Source: Nitrospinota bacterium (GTDB lineage: Bacteria; Nitrospinota_A; UBA7883). From it: DNA of 64,000 nt. Numbering within the stretch: position 1 is the first letter of the stretch; every line of letters starts with the position of its first letter. This document shows positions 24,502 to 30,417 of the stretch, piece after piece. The stretch lies in NCBI GenBank assembly GCA_029881335.1, contig JAOUMU010000001.1, forward strand, positions 35,172 to 99,171, read 5' to 3'. A program made the position numbers and the translations under genes. Under the pieces are notes generated by a model. It did not search any database. It was not told the DNA's origin and worked only from the letters and a program-made list of their open reading frames with translations.

Positions 24502-25980
24502 ATGATCAAAGAACCAATTGTTATAGTTGACGACGATAAGTCGATAGGCAAGACATTAAAGCTCCATTTCGAGCGCCAGGGACACAGCGTTGTCACGGCT
24601 ATCACAGGCCAACAGGGCCTTGCCGAGCTGGACAAGGTTGATTCCGCCATAGTTATTCTGGACGTGAAGCTACCCGACGCCAACGGAGTGGAGCTACTGA
24701 AGGAGATCCAGGCCAAGGGGGAGGGATTCTACTCGATCATCATCACCGCGTTTCCTGACATGGAGACCACCGTAAAGGCTGTGCAGAACGGCGTGGGGGA
24801 ATACATTCATAAGCCGATAGATATTGAGGAGATGGACCGAGCCATCGGCAAGGCCCAGGAGTTCTTCCAGAGCAAGCGCCATGAAGAGGCTCTTTTTGAG
24901 TCAGTGCCTGTGTATAACGATACCAAGCGCCAATTCATAGGCAAAAGCTTCGCCATGAAAGAGGTCTTCAAGATGGTGGGTCACCTCTCCTTGAGCGCCA
25001 CCGCCGTCCACATATCAGGCGAGAGCGGAACGGGCAAGGAACTGGTGGCCCAGGCCATCCACTATAACAGTCAGGAGAAAAACAATCCGTTTGTCTCCGT
25101 CAATTGCTCGGCCATAGTCGACACTTTGCTCGAATCGGAGCTGTTCGGCCACGAAAAAGGCTCATTCACCGGCGCGATCGTGCAAAAACAGGGAAAATTC
25201 GCCCAGGCCGGCAAGGGCACCATGTTTCTCGACGAGATAGGCGAAATGGACGTGAACCTGCAAGCCAAACTCCTGCGGGTGCTGCAGGAGAGAGAGTTCG
25301 AACGGGTGGGCGGCAAGGAAAAGATAAAGTGCGAATGCAGGATCATCTCCGCCACGAACAAGGATTTGCGCCAACTCATCGCCGAAGGTGGATTCCGGGA
25401 GGACCTCTATTACCGGCTCAATGTTGTCAACCTCCATATCCCCCCACTGCGCGAGCGGGTCGAAGATATTCCGGAGCTGGTCAAGTACTTCATCGCCAAG
25501 GCGAACCATCAGACCAACAAAAACATCAAGTTCATCTCCCAGGGCGCCGCGCGTTTCCTCACCGAGCAAAACTGGAAAGGCAATGTGCGCGAGCTGGAAA
25601 ACTTTGTAACCCAGGCCGTGATCATGACCCATGGAGACAGGCTCACAGAGAGTTTCCTTAGAAGTGTTTCAAGGATAGACGACTCCAGACCCAGCCGCTC
25701 CGGCGCCGCCGATATCTCCTCCACCGGTGACCATTCCGGAAACGGAGCCTACCAGCCAAAGTCGCTGTGCGATGTGGAAAAAGAACAAATTCAGGGCGCG
25801 CTGGACTTCACCAAATGGCACAAGGGAAAGACCTGCGAGATTCTGGGGATCACCCGGCCCAGGTTGGACAGAAAGATCAGAAAGTACGGGATCAAGCAAA
25901 GCTCTTATCACCTGCAGGAGCAATGGACCGCCGGCCAGGCCAATGTACCCCAGGTCGCCAGACCAGCATGGACCAGTTAA
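24502..25980 (+). CDS. sigma54-dependent response regulator / enhancer-binding protein (REC, AAA+, HTH)
   Basis: REC (VIVDDDKSIGKTL...ILDVKLPDANG), Walker A GESGTGKE, GAFTGA loop, ESELFGHEKGSFTGA, and a C-terminal HTH. Confidence 0.85.
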   Translation: MIKEPIVIVDDDKSIGKTLKLHFERQGHSVVTAITGQQGLAELDKVDSAIVILDVKLPDANGVELLKEIQAKGEGFYSIIITAFPDMETTVKAVQNGVGEYIHKPIDIEEMDRAIGKAQEFFQSKRHEEALFESVPVYNDTKRQFIGKSFAMKEVFKMVGHLSLSATAVHISGESGTGKELVAQAIHYNSQEKNNPFVSVNCSAIVDTLLESELFGHEKGSFTGAIVQKQGKFAQAGKGTMFLDEIGEMDVNLQAKLLRVLQEREFERVGGKEKIKCECRIISATNKDLRQLIAEGGFREDLYYRLNVVNLHIPPLRERVEDIPELVKYFIAKANHQTNKNIKFISQGAARFLTEQNWKGNVRELENFVTQAVIMTHGDRLTESFLRSVSRIDDSRPSRSGAADISSTGDHSGNGAYQPKSLCDVEKEQIQGALDFTKWHKGKTCEILGITRPRLDRKIRKYGIKQSSYHLQEQWTAGQANVPQVARPAWTS

Positions 25981-26645
25981 AAGAGCTTTCCCTGCTGGTG
26001 CAGCATGGCGAGAACGTCCAGGCCGTTTCCTGCGCCGAGAAACTTTTGGCCCAGTCGTGCCCCATGGAAGATATCGTAAAGGCTCTCTCCGATGGCCTGG
26101 AAGTTCTCCGCAACAAGTGCACCATAGAAAACTTTCAGTTGCTCGACGTTTTACTTGCCACCAGGGCCATGGTGGAGGTGGTGGATGAATGCCTGGCCAG
26201 AAAGCTCCAGAACGAATTGGACAATCTGGCCACCACCCACGAAGCCACCCAAAGCGCAGAGCCGACCAGGACTTTGGTCATCGGCACTATCCAGGGGGAT
26301 ATCCACGATCTTGGAAAGCATATTGTGGCCACCTTGTGCAGATTCAAAAACTTGCGGGTAATAAATCTGGGCAAGGATGTTTCCGTGGAGCAGTTCGTGG
26401 ACACAGCCATCGCCGAGAATGCCGATTTCATTGGCGTCTCCAGCCTTATGACAGTCTGCCTCTCCAGGATAAGCGAGATAAAAAATGAGCTGGCGCGGCG
26501 GGGACGAAACGAGATTACGGTCGTGGCAGGGGGTGGCGCCGCCCAACAAAGCTCGCCTGACAGGCTCAATGTCGATTATGTCGCACACGACGCTTTCGAC
26601 GGGCTCGATTATTTTCTCAGCGACATCCTTCCAGTTAAAAGTTGA
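25969..26645 (+). CDS. cobalamin-binding corrinoid protein (MtaC/MtbC-type: helical cap plus Rossmann B12-binding domain)
   Basis: DxHxxG motif (GDIHDLGKHIV), SxL (SSLMT) and GG (VVAGGGA). The ATG at 25969 overlaps the last codons of the regulator. The longer track ORF from 25767 is rejected because it lies inside the regulator gene. Confidence 0.75.
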
Positions 26646-29383: not shown

Positions 29384-30417
29384 AAGAAGGTTTTTTCAAA
29401 AAGCTCCTGGACAACGCTTCCGACCTGATCTGGGCCGTGGACATGGAGGGGCGCTTCATATACATAAACGACAACATCAAGGAATGGGGCTACGACAAGG
29501 AGGAGTTGATCGGCCAGCCGCTGTTGAGCATTCTAAACGCCCAGCGGATAGGGAAACGGGAGACCCGCCGCTCCATAATGGGCATCCACCAGACTTACGA
29601 GATGGAGATCGTGGACAAGAAGGGAACCGCCCACAAAGTGGTGGTCAAATCCTCGCCGCTGGAGGAGGAGGGGACAATCGTGGGAGTCATGGGGATCATC
29701 CGCGACATCACGGAGCTGGAGCGACTGGAGAGAAAACTGAAGGATGAGGAACGGCTCGCCTCCCTGGGCCGACTGGCCACCGGCATCGCCCACGAAATCC
29801 GCAATCCCCTTTCATCTGTGAAGATGAACCTTTCGATCCTGAAAAAGCGACTCAGCCCCAAGGGAGTGGATGTGGAGCATTTCGAGATCGCCCAGGAGGA
29901 GGTATTCCACCTGGAGAAGATCGTCAGCGAGCTTCTCGATTACGCCAAGCCGATCACGCTGGATCTGAAGATATGCGACCTGACCCAGTTGATCGATGTC
30001 GCCATTGCCGCCGTGGCGGCCCCTTGCGCAGAAAAAGGTGTCACCATCAGGACGGAGTATGACGGCAGAGGGCACATGGCGCTGCTGGACAAGACCAAGA
30101 TCACCCAGGCGCTGATCAATATATTGCTCAACTCGGTGCAGGCCTCCCTGGAAAACTCGGAGATTTTCGTGGGCGCGGAGACTGTGAAGTTTCCCTCGTC
30201 CGACAGGGCCAGGGTGGTGATTCGCGATCAGGGGTATGGAATCCCGGAGGATAACCTGAAATATATATTCGATCCGTTCTTCACCACCAGAAAGGATGGC
30301 ACCGGCCTGGGACTCTCCATCGTCCGCAACATCGTGGACAACCACGAAGGCTCGATCACTATAGAAAGCGAACAGGGCAAAGGCGCCACCGTGTCCATAG
30401 AGCTTCCCGCGCCGTAG
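29380..30417 (+). CDS. cytoplasmic PAS-domain histidine kinase
   Basis: No TM helix. PAS domain (LLDNASDLIWAVDMEGRFIYIN), H-box (AHEIRNPLS), and N/G boxes (GTGLGLSIV). Confidence 0.8.
   Translation: MKEGFFKKLLDNASDLIWAVDMEGRFIYINDNIKEWGYDKEELIGQPLLSILNAQRIGKRETRRSIMGIHQTYEMEIVDKKGTAHKVVVKSSPLEEEGTIVGVMGIIRDITELERLERKLKDEERLASLGRLATGIAHEIRNPLSSVKMNLSILKKRLSPKGVDVEHFEIAQEEVFHLEKIVSELLDYAKPITLDLKICDLTQLIDVAIAAVAAPCAEKGVTIRTEYDGRGHMALLDKTKITQALINILLNSVQASLENSEIFVGAETVKFPSSDRARVVIRDQGYGIPEDNLKYIFDPFFTTRKDGTGLGLSIVRNIVDNHEGSITIESEQGKGATVSIELPAP

What the first reader, a model, noticed from the sequence alone, without database searches (positions are those of the whole stretch)
24502..30417. Two-component system (sigma54 EBP response regulator plus PAS kinase) bracketing a corrinoid protein and a methyltransferase/activase fusion in one translationally coupled operon
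Seen: four plus-strand genes with 4-12 nt overlaps: regulator (24502-25980), B12-binding protein with DxHxxG (25969-26645), MtaA-like::[2Fe-2S]::RACo fusion (26642-29383), and cytoplasmic PAS kinase (29380-30417). Established: MtaC-type corrinoid proteins, MtaA/CmuA methyltransferases and RACo-type ATP-dependent reductive activators form methyl-transfer modules in methanogens, acetogens and O-demethylating bacteria. Those systems also need a substrate-specific MT1 (MtaB/MttB/MtgB/MtvB-like), which is absent here and within about 10 kb on either side. Inference: either this is a self-contained methyl-X:acceptor system where the MtaA-like domain does both half-reactions (as for MtsA/CmuA with methylthiols or chloromethane), or the corrinoid module is a sensory input to the kinase/regulator pair (methyl-donor, redox or B12/light sensing). 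The second option is suggested by the embedding between cognate kinase and regulator, and no equivalent arrangement comes to mind from known systems.
Basis: partly seen in the sequence, partly recalled or inferred. Interest (0 to 1): 0.85.

Follow-up and report, generated by a model that had tools for sequence, protein, structure and literature searches.

The report
Corrinoid-protein module wired to a two-component system
A vitamin-B12-binding protein and an altered methyltransferase/activase sit inside a kinase-regulator operon that is conserved across many uncultured Nitrospinota, and they most likely act as a previously undescribed B12-based signal input controlling a neighbouring, poorly understood respiratory (bd-like oxidase/cytochrome c) gene cluster.

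Summary
The four overlapping plus-strand genes exist as described; the B12 gene starts at 25968, not 25969. The source is a Nitrospinota MAG.

The cassette is conserved in about 20 Nitrospinota loci. It is preceded by a conserved 32-aa membrane-peptide gene (24295-24393) and nearly always lies beside a bd-like oxidase/multi-cytochrome c cluster. That cluster carries a conserved UAS (23949-23972) and a sigma54 -24/-12 element (23803-23818).

In other lineages the B12 protein, the URO-D-like domain and RACo recur in four fusion or split arrangements. A histidine kinase of varying architecture follows wherever the contig reaches far enough. No partner methyltransferase is ever present.

Three derived traits travel with the kinase link:
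- The MtaA zinc motif HxC is lost (invariant WYSVAG).
- The cap phenylalanine above the cobalt is replaced by an invariant cysteine (KCT motif, Cys51).
- In the window's clade the RACo ATP-binding motifs are degenerate.

Best reading (about 0.55): the state of the corrinoid cofactor is the sensory input to the kinase, which acts through the sigma54 activator on the oxidase cluster. The signal is unknown and nothing is shown biochemically. I found no published description; the mec cassette is the closest known arrangement.

The parts
24295..24393 (+). Conserved small ORF (32 aa, GTG start, one predicted TM helix; VKNFTFLDWFIHFAIGINLFVCAFIVWFVMMR). It is the likely first gene of the cassette.
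   Evidence: tblastn finds homologues with the motif FT[LF]LDW.IHF[GA] 100-250 nt upstream of the regulator gene in 14 other Nitrospinota loci. It is called as a 40-aa gene in L003. A GGAGA sequence lies 6 nt before the GTG.
24502..25980 (+). NtrC/AtoC-like response regulator and sigma54 enhancer-binding protein (REC-AAA+-HTH_8, 492 aa).
   Evidence: Pfam hits. The best NCBIfam similarities are AtoC/NtrC, below their cut-offs. Walker A is GESGTGKE and the GAFTGA-type loop is GSFTGA. Orthologues are 57-79% identical in about 19 loci.
25968..26645 (+). Stand-alone corrinoid protein (225 aa): four-helix cap plus Rossmann B12-binding domain. The His-on motif is G110-D111-x-H113-x-x-G116. Invariant Cys51 (codon 26118-26120) sits in the cap motif K50-C51-T52.
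   Evidence: Pfam. PDB relatives are 1Y80 and MttC 7XCN. In family alignment A3, K50, C51, T52, E54, F56, L58, L59 and R66 are invariant. C51 aligns with the conserved cap Phe of 1Y80 and 7XCN. The KCT motif is present in all kinase-linked modules but not in a catabolic-type cluster, L054, which has KF..FVPE.
26642..27652 (+). URO-D/MtaA-like TIM-barrel domain of the fusion protein (residues 1-337). It lacks the H-x-C zinc ligands (W233-Y-S235-V-A237-G) but retains Cys315.
   Evidence: Pfam E 1e-62. Foldseek to MtaA 4AY7 gives TM 0.89 and rmsd 2.2. The MtaA alignment shows LHICG aligned with WYSVAG. The motif is invariant in 58 of 58 members. Relatives outside the clade keep H-x-C, mostly as HICG.
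27695..27961 (+). [2Fe-2S] ferredoxin domain of the fusion (residues about 352-440; Cys385, 391, 394 and 426).
   Evidence: Pfam Fer2. All four Cys are conserved in 57 of 58 members. The region aligns to the N-terminus of RACo 3ZYY.
28181..29362 (+). RACo-like middle and ASKHA domains of the fusion (residues about 514-907). The nucleotide-binding motifs are degenerate in this clade: DMSGEN replaces DIGTTT and HLGSSGS replaces DIGTNGE.
   Evidence: Pfam RACo_C_ter is a partial hit. PDB 3ZYY/4C1N alignments are, and Foldseek to 3ZYY gives E 1e-24. The motif table shows intact motifs in 49 of 58 members and degenerate motifs in the window protein, P0002-4, P0006, P0010, P0016, P0018 and P0042.
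29380..30417 (+). Soluble PAS-HisKA-HATPase sensor histidine kinase (345 aa).
   Evidence: Pfam. The best NCBIfam similarity is AtoS, below cut-off. Orthologues are 48-87% identical and lie directly after the fusion gene in every Nitrospinota locus with enough sequence.
23949..23972 (-). Conserved upstream-activator-like element AACAAAGCGTTATGATGTTTTGTT, 131 nt upstream of the -24/-12 element.
   Evidence: The pattern AACN5GTTN5RTTTYRTT occurs once in the window against 0 expected. It occurs once per locus in L007, L008, L009, L013, L023, L025 and L029, lying upstream of the -24/-12 element of the CydA-like gene wherever that was read (window, L007, L008, L009, L013, L023, L025, L029). A variant occurs in L003, L012 and L014.
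23803..23818 (-). Sigma54-type -24/-12 promoter element GGGCATGGTTTTTGCT, 266 nt upstream of the CydA-like gene.
   Evidence: A PWM scan of orthologous upstream regions gave 9 of 16 loci at p<0.05, including a perfect TGGCACGCTTGTTGCT in L009. Control genes gave 0-1 of 12-22.
13074..23536 (-). Putative target operon: CydA-like 'bd-like oxidase' (647 aa), four to five c-type cytochromes, a cyt c::EB_dh (alternative NxrC-like) protein, cytochrome b and others.
   Evidence: Pfam. The cluster lies next to the cassette in 16 of about 19 informative Nitrospinota loci, in three different orientations. The Nitrospinae literature describes this cluster as conserved and of unresolved function (PMC8026999; PMC3578206).
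36337..36352 (-). Second sigma54-type element, CGGCACAAATATTGCT, 172 nt upstream of orf215.
   Evidence: Six of 12 orthologous upstream regions score at p<0.05. No copy of the UAS motif is present here, so the link to this regulator is weak.
30756..36164 (-). Possible second target: orf215, TlpA-like redoxin, a protein with a weak DsbD_TM-like match, orf254, CcmH, an FGE-sulfatase-like protein, orf288 and a second redoxin. These look like periplasmic thiol-reduction and cytochrome c maturation functions.
   Evidence: Pfam, and gene calls in L001. The cluster is syntenic downstream of the cassette in 11 other loci.

Best explanation
The cassette is a two-component system whose sensory input is a corrinoid protein. 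The cassette comprises a small membrane peptide, a sigma54 activator, a B12 protein, a URO-D::[2Fe-2S]::RACo fusion and a PAS kinase.

Proposed mechanism (inferred):
1. The 225-aa B12 protein holds a His-on cobamide under a four-helix cap. The usual shielding Phe of that cap is replaced by an invariant Cys (Cys51).
2. The Zn-less MtaA-like domain and, where still active, the RACo domain set or reset the cofactor's state. That state could be the oxidation state Co(I)/Co(II)/Co(III), methylation, or the upper ligand, possibly Cys51.
3. The resulting conformation or partner choice of the B12 protein is read by the soluble PAS kinase.
4. The kinase phosphorylates the NtrC-type activator. The activator binds the conserved element at 23949-23972 and opens the sigma54 promoter at 23803-23818 of the adjacent bd-like oxidase/cytochrome c/NxrC-like cluster.

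What is shown: gene content, motifs, synteny and the cis-elements.

What is inferred: the B12-to-kinase coupling, the activator's target, and the signal. The most plausible signals are oxidants of reduced cobalt or ligands of Co(III), namely O2/redox state, N-oxides such as NO, N2O or nitrite, or a methyl donor.
For: (1) Conserved linkage. The regulator-B12-fusion-kinase order occurs in about 20 Nitrospinota loci.

(2) The B12/URO-D/RACo module stays next to a kinase when the kinase is not orthologous. Partners include PilJ-HAMP-PAS hybrids, GAF hybrids and multi-PAS hybrids. The linkage also survives changes in fusion pattern:
- B12 | URO-D::RACo | HK
- B12 | URO-D | DUF1638 | RACo | HK
- B12::URO-D | RACo | HK

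(3) No second methyltransferase appears in any of these loci or among the window ORFs scanned.

(4) Derived traits co-vary with the kinase link:
- H-x-C to S/H-x-A/T in the URO-D domain.
- Cap Phe to Cys, the KCT motif.

(5) The window's clade has degenerate ASKHA phosphate motifs, yet its B12 protein, kinase and regulator are 79-87% identical to those of L007. This argues against sustained catalytic turnover in this clade.

(6) The B12 protein is the most conserved part across lineages: at least 50% identical to Planctomycetes and 'Delta' MAG versions, against 30-34% for the fusion. This fits a protein with several interaction partners.

(7) Sigma54 elements and a unique conserved UAS lie before the oxidase cluster, not before the cassette: 3 of 18 for the regulator gene against 9 of 16 for the CydA-like gene.

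(8) RACo is known to form a redox-state-dependent complex with its corrinoid protein, and Co(I) is readily oxidised to Co(II) (PMC4934906 and the reference to Hennig 2012 therein).
Against: - There is no direct evidence that the B12 protein contacts or modulates the kinase.
- The kinases have their own PAS, PilJ or GAF domains that could sense signals unaided.
- The URO-D domain is under strong constraint (44-59% identity across the family, many invariant active-site-region residues) and RACo is intact in 49 of 58 members. Real methyl or electron chemistry is therefore probably still performed in most lineages, which also fits a regulated enzyme.
- In one Brocadiaceae MAG the B12 orthologue and the fusion are unlinked and no kinase is adjacent.
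- The activator-to-UAS assignment rests on proximity and conservation only.
- The second promoter, at orf215, lacks the UAS.
- The role proposed for Cys51 rests on sequence alignment plus my own recollection of MetH Phe708. No cofactor-containing model could be examined.
Confidence: 0.55

Rival explanations
1. An ordinary, if minimal, corrinoid methyltransferase enzyme system with its own dedicated regulator, as in the mec cassette. The URO-D-like domain methylates or demethylates the corrinoid protein with some substrate, RACo repairs it, and the partner methyltransferase is encoded elsewhere. The kinase and regulator merely control expression in response to that substrate.
For: - All three catalytic-type modules are present, and most family members keep intact RACo motifs and [2Fe-2S] ligands.
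- The URO-D domain is strongly conserved.
- URO-D-like proteins act as MT1s in O-demethylases.
- The mec cassette shows that two-component genes can share a cassette with corrinoid and methyltransferase genes.
- In a Brocadiaceae MAG the B12 orthologue lies beside MetK and AhcY, genes of the methyl cycle.
Against: - No second methyltransferase was seen in any of the roughly 30 loci examined or among the window ORFs scanned.
- The zinc ligands needed for thiol acceptors are lost.
- The ATP motifs of the activase are degenerate in the window's clade while the cassette is otherwise highly conserved.
- The cassette usually has no sigma54 promoter of its own, whereas the neighbouring oxidase cluster does.
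- The hosts are mostly Nitrospinota, a phylum whose cultured members are aerobic chemolithoautotrophs and B12 auxotrophs.
- The kinase partner changes between lineages but the module does not.
Confidence: 0.2
2. A cobamide-availability (holo versus apo) sensor or B12 chaperone/storage system in B12-auxotrophic bacteria. The kinase reports whether the cofactor is loaded.
For: Cultured Nitrospinae are predicted B12 auxotrophs (PMC8026999). The module is built around a highly conserved B12-binding protein.
Against: The apparent target is a respiratory cytochrome cluster with no obvious B12 dependence. An availability sensor would not need a methyltransferase-like domain plus a reductive activator. 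No cobalamin riboswitch and no btu or cob genes were found in the window.
Confidence: 0.1
3. A maturation or cofactor-modifying enzyme for the adjacent oxidase/cytochrome cluster, for example a tetrapyrrole-directed reaction by the uroporphyrinogen-decarboxylase-fold domain. Its link to the kinase would be incidental.
For: The cassette sits tightly beside haem-rich clusters and cytochrome c maturation-type genes in Nitrospinota. The fold is that of URO-D.
Against: Outside Nitrospinota the module keeps the kinase but not the oxidase cluster. The domain is much closer to MtaA than to HemE: TM 0.89 against about 0.81, and NCBIfam MtaA/CmuA at 149 bits against hemE at 81 bits.
Confidence: 0.07
4. 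A B12-based light sensor of the CarH/AerR kind. The methyltransferase and activase would regenerate photolysed methyl-cobamide.
For: B12-binding domains with four-helix caps are established photoreceptor modules, and methyl-Co is photolabile (own knowledge). The module contains what would be needed to re-methylate the cofactor.
Against: Many host MAGs come from groundwater, deep-sea or hydrothermal samples, judging by the record titles. The CarH model scores only 25 bits against a cut-off of 400. No light-related genes are nearby.
Confidence: 0.04

Closest known systems
MtaA/MtaC-type corrinoid methyltransferase systems with RACo/RamA-type reductive activators (methanogens, acetogens, O-demethylating bacteria)
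   Same: The three protein families are the same:
- A cap + Rossmann His-on corrinoid protein (DxHxxG, SxL, GG).
- A URO-D-fold methyltransferase (Foldseek TM 0.89 to M. mazei MtaA).
- A [2Fe-2S]-ASKHA activator homologous to RACo 3ZYY.
   Different: - Only one methyltransferase-like domain is present and no partner exists.
- The H-x-C zinc ligands are replaced by S-x-A.
- The cap Phe is replaced by an invariant Cys.
- The methyltransferase is fused to the activator.
- ATP motifs are degenerate in the window's clade.
- All curated family cut-offs are missed.
- The module is always next to a histidine kinase.
- The hosts are mainly Nitrospinota.
mec cassette of anaerobic dichloromethane degraders (MecA kinase, MecB corrinoid protein, MecC/E/F/I methyltransferases, MecD regulator, MecH RACo)
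   Same: Two-component genes share a cassette with a corrinoid protein, an MtaA/CmuA-like methyltransferase and a RACo (bioRxiv 10.1101/2021.08.30.458270).
   Different: mec has four methyltransferases, including an MtrH-type enzyme on the tetrahydrofolate side, plus a transporter. Its kinase has a PocR sensor domain thought to bind the substrate directly. Its hosts are strict anaerobes. It is a catabolic pathway. The present cassette has none of the extra enzymes, and the kinase partner varies between lineages.
B12-dependent regulators CarH/LitR and AerR/PpaA
   Same: A B12-binding Rossmann domain plus a four-helix bundle serves as the sensory element. Signalling in those proteins depends on what occupies the upper axial position of cobalt (own knowledge; PMC10442372 and PMC6199135 were listed but not read in detail).
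   Different: Those proteins are photoreceptors. They are fused to, or directly bind, a transcription factor. They have no methyltransferase or activase and no two-component relay. They use His rather than Cys in the bundle. The CarH model scores only 25 bits against a cut-off of 400.
Cobalamin-dependent methionine synthase MetH
   Same: It has a cap-on resting state protecting the cofactor, domains that compete for the upper face of the corrinoid, and a dedicated reactivation module (PMC10567725). The B12 domain is homologous.
   Different: MetH is one polypeptide with two substrate barrels, a zinc site for homocysteine and SAM-dependent reactivation. Here there is one Zn-less barrel and ATP/[2Fe-2S]-type reactivation, and the cap residue equivalent to Phe708 (own knowledge) is Cys.
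NtrB/NtrC- and AtoS/AtoC-type two-component systems, and kinases controlled by soluble accessory proteins (for example NtrB-PII)
   Same: The kinase is a soluble PAS-HisKA-HATPase protein and the regulator is REC-AAA+-HTH_8, with best similarity to AtoS/AtoC and NtrB/NtrC. A UAS lies about 130 nt upstream of a -24/-12 promoter. The principle of an accessory protein feeding information to a cytoplasmic kinase is established (own knowledge).
   Different: The accessory proteins would be a corrinoid protein plus a methyltransferase/activase, which has not been described. All equivalog cut-offs are missed, so these are not AtoSC or NtrBC orthologues.

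Membership tests
MtaA/CmuA methyltransferase family (TIGR01463; URO-D fold) | URO-D TIM-barrel fold | tested here: met
   Pfam URO-D E 1e-62 over residues 3-335. The AF2 model (pLDDT 85) superposes on MtaA 4AY7 with TM 0.89 and rmsd 2.2.
MtaA/CmuA methyltransferase family (TIGR01463; URO-D fold) | Score above the curated family cut-off | tested here: not met
   TIGR01463 scores 149.2 bits against a cut-off of 235.4. The MtaA equivalog scores 111.5 against 400.
MtaA/CmuA methyltransferase family (TIGR01463; URO-D fold) | Zinc site His-x-Cys...Cys that activates the thiol acceptor | tested here: not met
   MtaA LHICG aligns with WYSVAG. S-x-A is invariant in 58 of 58 family members, and only the distal Cys315 is kept. 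Relatives outside the clade keep H-x-C, mostly as HICG.
MtaA/CmuA methyltransferase family (TIGR01463; URO-D fold) | Methyl transfer between a methyl-corrinoid protein and an acceptor | not testable with these tools
   This needs enzyme assays.
RACo-type reductive activator of corrinoid proteins | N-terminal plant-type [2Fe-2S] cluster with four Cys ligands | tested here: met
   Pfam Fer2. Cys385, 391, 394 and 426 are conserved in 57 of 58 members.
RACo-type reductive activator of corrinoid proteins | RACo middle domain (PF17651) | tested here: inconclusive
   There is no Pfam hit in the window protein or its three closest relatives, although the domain is detected in most homologues. The phmmer alignment to 3ZYY spans residues 511-907, and Foldseek reports 640 aligned columns.
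RACo-type reductive activator of corrinoid proteins | ASKHA phosphate-1 (DxGTT) and phosphate-2 (DxGTNGE) nucleotide-binding motifs | tested here: not met
   The window protein has DMSGEN and HLGSSGS. Forty-nine of 58 homologues have the canonical motifs.
RACo-type reductive activator of corrinoid proteins | ATP-dependent reduction of Co(II) to Co(I) | not testable with these tools
   This needs biochemistry.
Methyltransferase-cognate corrinoid proteins (TIGR02370; MtaC/MtbC/MttC type) | Rossmann B12-binding domain with DxHxxG, SxL and GG (His-on, base-off) | tested here: met
   GDIHDLG, SSL and GGG are present. Pfam B12-binding E 3e-21. G110, D111, H113, S158, S159, L160, G188 and G189 are invariant.
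Methyltransferase-cognate corrinoid proteins (TIGR02370; MtaC/MtbC/MttC type) | Score above the curated family cut-off | tested here: not met
   TIGR02370 scores 98.1 bits against a cut-off of 215.3.
Methyltransferase-cognate corrinoid proteins (TIGR02370; MtaC/MtbC/MttC type) | Canonical cap motif (K/L)F...(M/L)F(L/V)P, with a Phe over the cobalt | tested here: not met
   The motif is replaced by the invariant K-C-T-x-E-x-F-x-L-L. Cys51 aligns with the Phe of 1Y80 and 7XCN. A catabolic-type neighbour, L054, keeps KF..FVPE.
Methyltransferase-cognate corrinoid proteins (TIGR02370; MtaC/MtbC/MttC type) | Two cognate methyltransferases (MT1 and MT2) encoded with it | tested here: not met
   Only one URO-D-like domain is present. 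No MtaB/MttB/MtgB/MtrH/MeTr family appears among the window ORFs scanned or in the related loci.
NtrC-family sigma54 enhancer-binding response regulators | REC domain, AAA+ domain with a GAFTGA-type loop, and a Fis-type HTH | tested here: met
   Response_reg, Sigma54_activat (E 1.8e-68), AAA_lid_14 and HTH_8 are found. GESGTGKE and GSFTGA are in the sequence. All equivalog cut-offs (AtoC, NtrC and others) are missed.
NtrC-family sigma54 enhancer-binding response regulators | A cognate UAS plus a -24/-12 promoter | tested here: inconclusive
   A conserved UAS (23949-23972) and a -24/-12 element (23803-23818) lie next to the gene and are conserved in orthologous loci. Binding by this regulator was not tested.
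HisKA-type sensor histidine kinases | HisKA with a phospho-acceptor His, plus a HATPase_c domain | tested here: met
   HisKA E 1.7e-13, HATPase_c E 5.6e-26 and a PAS domain are found. The H-box is GIAHEIRNPL.
mec (methylene chloride catabolism) cassette | Kinase, regulator, corrinoid protein, several methyltransferases including an MtrH type, RACo and a transporter | tested here: not met
   Only the kinase, regulator, corrinoid protein, one URO-D-like domain and a RACo-like domain are present. There is no MtrH-type or additional methyltransferase, no PocR domain and no MecJ-like transporter.
CarH/AerR-type B12 photoreceptor regulators | B12-binding module fused to, or directly partnered with, a transcription factor, and a match to the family model | tested here: not met
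   The protein stands alone with no DNA-binding domain. NCBIfam CarH scores 25 bits against a cut-off of 400.

The most novel reading that the evidence does not exclude
The module defines a new class of bacterial signal receptor. It comprises a 'KCT-cap' corrinoid protein, a Zn-less MtaA-like domain and a RACo.

In this reading the chemical state of a protein-bound cobamide is actively set by a methyltransferase-like domain and an activase, and a histidine kinase reads it out. The relevant state could be the redox state, methylation or upper-ligand exchange, possibly with Cys51 as a switchable thiolate ligand.

In Nitrospinota the receptor would govern the sigma54-dependent expression of the enigmatic bd-like oxidase/NxrC-like respiratory cluster. 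It would do so in response to O2/redox state or N-oxides (NO, N2O, nitrite).
Probability: 0.4. Interest if true: 0.9.

Novelty: new variant of a known kind. Interest (0 to 1): 0.8.

Why it matters
If the reading is right, it adds a third way in which B12 is used for regulation, beside riboswitches and photoreceptors. This would be an enzymatically maintained corrinoid sensor feeding a two-component system.

It would also give the first regulatory handle on the conserved bd-like oxidase/cytochrome c/NxrC-like cluster of Nitrospinota. The role of that cluster in the electron transport of marine nitrite oxidisers is an acknowledged open question (PMC3578206, PMC8026999). The cis-elements found here (UAS, -24/-12) and the small soluble proteins make the hypothesis directly testable in vitro, even though the organisms are uncultured.

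Independently of function, the analysis defines a coherent, previously unannotated subfamily that could be used to re-annotate genomes. Databases currently label its members 'ASKHA domain-containing protein', 'uroporphyrinogen decarboxylase' or 'methylmalonyl-CoA mutase B12-binding chain'. Three markers define it:
- URO-D with W-x-[SHQ]-[IV]-[AT]-G.
- A corrinoid cap with K-C-T.
- An adjacent histidine kinase.

Tried and rejected
- **Window-wide count of sigma54 consensus matches.** It is not above chance: 21 found against 32 expected. Single matches therefore mean nothing, and only conservation at orthologous positions was used.
- **Sigma70 promoter and intrinsic terminator scan of 23400-31000.** It found fewer sites than in shuffled sequence and nothing between the four genes. 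This is uninformative beyond being consistent with one transcript.
- **Cobalamin riboswitch or other RNA.** Rfam at gathering threshold found only four tRNAs in the window.
- **UAS motif upstream of the orf215 promoter or elsewhere.** None was found, so I do not claim that cluster as a target.
- **Specific PAS-domain similarity between the window kinase and the non-orthologous kinases of other lineages.** Only generic similarity was seen.
- **Rosetta-stone fusions of the B12 protein to a kinase.** None occurred among the 120 listed of 155 B12-protein clusters; all listed are stand-alone proteins of 126-250 aa. A B12::URO-D fusion was found instead.
- **Distance between Cys70, Cys78 and Cys315 in the model**, to test for an alternative metal or disulfide site. 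Model coordinates are not exposed, so this could not be done.
- **My recollection that MtoA is a Zn-less URO-D-type methyltransferase.** This was wrong. MtoA is MtrH-like and MtoB/MtvB are the MtaA/CmuA relatives, so the argument was dropped.
- **Literature searches.** Nine searches and seven papers were consulted, and none describes this cassette.
- **Methionine-synthase-like function**, suggested by MetK/AhcY beside the Brocadiaceae B12 orthologue.

Full report
**1. The observation**

The region 24502-30417 holds four plus-strand ORFs with the stated domains.
- The first is an NtrC/AtoC-like response regulator: REC, a sigma54-interaction AAA+ domain with GESGTGKE and GSFTGA, an AAA lid and a Fis-type HTH.
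- The second is a 225-aa corrinoid protein with a B12-binding domain, a weak B12-binding_2 cap hit, and GDIHDLG, SSL and GGG motifs.
- The third is a 913-aa fusion of a URO-D/MtaA-like barrel (residues 3-335), a [2Fe-2S] ferredoxin domain (358-430) and a RACo-type ASKHA region.
- The fourth is a 345-aa soluble PAS-HisKA-HATPase kinase.

The junctions are ATG(25968)...TAA(25980), TTGA (26642-26645) and ATGA (29380-29383). The overlaps are therefore 13, 4 and 4 nt.

Independent gene calls on the source contig agree. That contig is from a Nitrospinota MAG (ENA assembly, 99.5 kb).

About 44 of the 54 long non-overlapping ORFs of the 64-kb window were scanned against Pfam (list). No second corrinoid-dependent methyltransferase of any known type turned up.

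**2. The cassette is conserved, larger than described, and tied to a respiratory cluster**

A search with the fusion protein found 58 clusters at 90% identity. Nearly all named ones come from Nitrospinota/Nitrospinae MAGs, and a few from 'Deltaproteobacteria' MAGs.

tblastn of the window's proteins was run against 30 fetched loci. It shows the order regulator-B12-fusion-kinase in about 20 independent Nitrospinota loci, some labelled 'Nitrospirae'. Identities to the window proteins are:
- regulator 57-79%;
- B12 protein 59-84%;
- kinase 48-87%;
- fusion only 35-39%, rising to 61% in the closest locus.

A 32-40-aa ORF encoding a single hydrophobic helix precedes the regulator gene in 14 other loci. 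Its motif is FT[LF]LDW.IHF[GA], and in the window it lies at 24295-24393. It appears to be a fifth member of the cassette.

In 16 of about 19 informative loci the cassette lies beside the same cluster. That cluster holds a CydA-like 'bd-like oxidase', several c-type cytochromes and a cytochrome c::EB_dh (NxrC-like) protein. It appears in three different relative orientations, which argues for functional rather than accidental linkage.

The Nitrospinae literature describes this cluster as conserved and functionally unresolved (PMC3578206; PMC8026999).

A second syntenic cluster lies downstream. It holds TlpA-like redoxins, CcmH, a protein with a weak DsbD_TM-like match and an FGE-sulfatase-like protein.

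**3. Cis-elements**

A sigma54-type -24/-12 element (GGGCATGGTTTTTGCT, 23803-23818, minus strand) lies 266 nt upstream of the CydA-like gene. The total number of such matches in the window is not above chance, so I tested orthologous positions with a position-weight scan.
- CydA-like upstream regions: 9 of 16 score at p<0.05, including a perfect TGGCACGCTTGTTGCT in L009.
- orf215 upstream regions: 6 of 12.
- Regulator gene: 3 of 18.
- Internal control genes: 0-1 of 12-22.

An element AACAAAGCGTTATGATGTTTTGTT (23949-23972) lies 131 nt further upstream. The derived pattern AACN5GTTN5RTTTYRTT occurs once in the window against 0 expected. It occurs once per locus in seven other loci, and lies upstream of the CydA-like -24/-12 element wherever that was read. 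A variant occurs in three more loci.

This is the classical geometry of an enhancer-binding-protein site. The physically linked regulator is the obvious candidate, but binding is inferred, not shown.

It has no copy of this UAS.

**4. The module follows histidine kinases, not methyltransferase partners**

Outside the Nitrospinota type, the regulator and the oxidase cluster disappear. The B12 protein and the URO-D/RACo proteins stay immediately upstream of a kinase of unrelated architecture. The cases seen were:
- PilJ-HAMP-PAS-HisKA-HATPase(-REC) kinases in 'Delta' MAGs, a Planctomycetes MAG and another assembly.
- A GAF-HisKA-HATPase-REC kinase in a locus where the URO-D, DUF1638 and RACo genes are separate.
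- A multi-PAS hybrid kinase after a B12::URO-D fusion plus a separate RACo.
- A PAS-HATPase protein plus a REC-kinase after B12 and URO-D::RACo in a 774-kb contig.

Four different fusion and split permutations of the same three modules amount to Rosetta-stone evidence that they work together. The kinase that follows them wherever the contig reaches far enough indicates that their output is signalling.

None of these loci encodes another corrinoid methyltransferase.

One Brocadiaceae MAG is an exception. Its fusion gene has neither a B12 gene nor a kinase nearby, and its B12 orthologue follows metK-ahcY-DUF1015. A second Brocadiaceae locus (L027) also lacks a kinase, and its fusion gene is split.

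**5. Three derived sequence traits co-vary with the kinase link**

(i) In MtaA the zinc ligands are His-x-Cys plus a distal Cys. In the alignment to 4AY7 the LHICG segment pairs with WYSVAG.
- S-x-A is invariant in all 58 fusion proteins, and the distal Cys315 is kept.
- All URO-D-only relatives fetched from Spirochaetes, Bathyarchaeia and other groups that align at this site keep H-x-C, mostly as HICG.
- An exhaustive phmmer search shows the nearest neighbours (33-40% identity) form a wider clade with W-x-[SHQND]-[IV]-[AT]-G. Canonical HICG returns only at 32% identity or less.

(ii) The corrinoid protein family has an invariant cap motif, K50-C51-T52-x-E-x-F-x-L-L.
- In profile alignments to PDB 1Y80 and to MttC 7XCN, Cys51 pairs with the conserved Phe of the canonical (K/L)F...(M/L)F(L/V)P motif.
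- From my own knowledge, that Phe is the equivalent of MetH Phe708, which lies over the upper face of the cofactor in the cap-on state.
- The KCT motif is present in every kinase-linked module examined, including the distant ones. It is absent from a catabolic-type cluster with an HICG barrel (L054).

(iii) The ASKHA phosphate-1 and phosphate-2 motifs are canonical in 49 of 58 fusion proteins. They are degenerate in the window protein (DMSGEN, HLGSSGS), in its three closest relatives and in several other lineages. The [2Fe-2S] cysteines persist.

The AF2 model is confident (pLDDT 85, pTM 0.78). It matches MtaA and RACo structures.

**6. Interpretation**

The enzyme-only reading, an MtsA/CmuA-like bifunctional methyltransferase, conflicts with three observations: the loss of the thiol-activating zinc site, the absence of any partner, and the decay of the activase in a clade where the rest of the cassette is strongly conserved.

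The pattern fits best a sensory module in which the state of the bound cobamide is the variable that the kinase reads.

Established chemistry makes this plausible. Co(I) is easily oxidised to Co(II), and RACo forms a redox-state-dependent complex with its corrinoid protein (PMC4934906 and Hennig et al. 2012 cited therein). The cap and the other domains compete for the upper face of the cofactor (PMC10567725). An invariant cysteine placed above the cobalt could act as a switchable ligand.

Which signal is sensed cannot be decided here. Candidates are O2 or redox state, N-oxides that oxidise or ligate cobalamin, and a methyl donor.

In Nitrospinota the output is most likely sigma54-dependent activation of the bd-like oxidase/cytochrome cluster. 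I put this reading at about 0.55. The rival readings and their confidences are:
- regulated enzyme system, 0.2;
- cobamide-availability sensor, 0.1;
- maturation enzyme, 0.07;
- photoreceptor, 0.04.

**7. Comparison with known systems and novelty**

The parts belong to known superfamilies, but each fails the curated family cut-offs and at least one defining feature of MtaA, RACo (in this clade) and MtaC-type proteins (see the membership table).

The closest known arrangement is the mec cassette. It is a catabolic pathway with four methyltransferases.

B12-based regulation by CarH and AerR shares the sensory domain but not the logic.

Nine literature searches and seven papers gave no description of this cassette. 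The Nitrospina and Nitrospinota genome papers do not mention it.

I classify the cassette conservatively as a new variant of known kinds. If the sensor mechanism is confirmed, it would be a new class of receptor.

**8. Limits**

All functional statements are inferences from sequence, synteny and predicted structure.
- The taxonomic labels are those of the database records.
- Whether these MAGs oxidise nitrite is unknown from this window.

Noticed in passing
window 24295-24393 (+): Conserved 32-aa single-helix ORF (VKNFTFLDWFIHFAIGINLFVCAFIVWFVMMR) directly upstream of the regulator gene. Homologues sit at the same position in 14 other Nitrospinota loci, and the ORF stays with the cassette where no oxidase cluster is seen nearby (L018). 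It could be a small membrane partner of the kinase or of the oxidase.
   Followed up: partly
window 23949-23972 (-) and 23803-23818 (-): Conserved UAS-like element plus a sigma54 -24/-12 element in front of the CydA-like/cytochrome c cluster. The UAS pattern is unique in the window and occurs once per orthologous locus.
   Followed up: yes
window 13074-23536 (-): A ten-gene haem-rich cluster: CydA-like 647 aa, cytochromes c of 279, 256, 223, 125 and 396 aa, cyt c::EB_dh 522 aa, cytochrome b 423 aa and two ORFs without Pfam hits. The CydA-like family is very widespread: 7263 hits at E<1e-30, including Alpha- and Deltaproteobacteria and Nitrospirota at 56-60% identity.
   Followed up: partly
window 30756-36164 (-), promoter 36337-36352 (-): Cluster of two TlpA-like redoxins, CcmH, a protein with a weak DsbD_TM-like match, an FGE-sulfatase-like protein and three ORFs with weak or no Pfam hits. 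It lies behind its own conserved sigma54-type element. It is syntenic with the cassette in 11 other loci but lacks the UAS.
   Followed up: partly
window 1434-5536 (-): A second FGE-sulfatase-like gene (3433-4296) lies next to a Peripla_BP_6 binding protein and a dCache-HAMP histidine kinase. It is a paralogue of the FGE-like gene in the cluster downstream of the cassette.
   Followed up: no
window 38327-45729: A dense signalling neighbourhood: a GAF-HisKA-HATPase-REC hybrid kinase (38327-40468, -), a GAF-HD/HD_5 protein (40668-41924, +) and a dCache-PAS-PAS-GGDEF-EAL protein of 1106 aa (42409-45729, -).
   Followed up: no
L089 (Brocadiaceae MAG GCA_015661205.1) 3142-8672; L021: In this MAG the B12-protein orthologue (53% identical) directly follows metK, ahcY and a DUF1015 gene. 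The fusion gene is on another contig, with neither a B12 gene nor a kinase beside it. This is the clearest exception to the kinase linkage (L027 is a second) and a hint of a link to the methyl cycle.
   Followed up: partly
L030 5628-6314: In the unfused version of the module, a DUF1638 protein is encoded between the URO-D and RACo genes.
   Followed up: no
L027 294-3154: The fusion gene of a second Brocadiaceae MAG is split into two ORFs (564 and 371 aa), by either a frameshift or an assembly error. It is followed by a TrkH gene and no kinase.
   Followed up: no
fusion protein residues 68-78 and 315 (window 26843-26875, 27584-27586): Cys70, in the motif D-L-C-V-E-A-E-A, is nearly invariant and specific to the fusion family. 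It lies two residues after the Asp that I equate, from memory and without an alignment, with the catalytic Asp86 of human URO-D. Together with Cys78 and Cys315 it might form an alternative metal or disulfide site. This could not be checked without model coordinates.
   Followed up: partly
window 45994-46262 (-) and 56975-57048 (-): Three clustered tRNA genes and one further tRNA gene. No cobalamin riboswitch occurs anywhere in the window.
   Followed up: no
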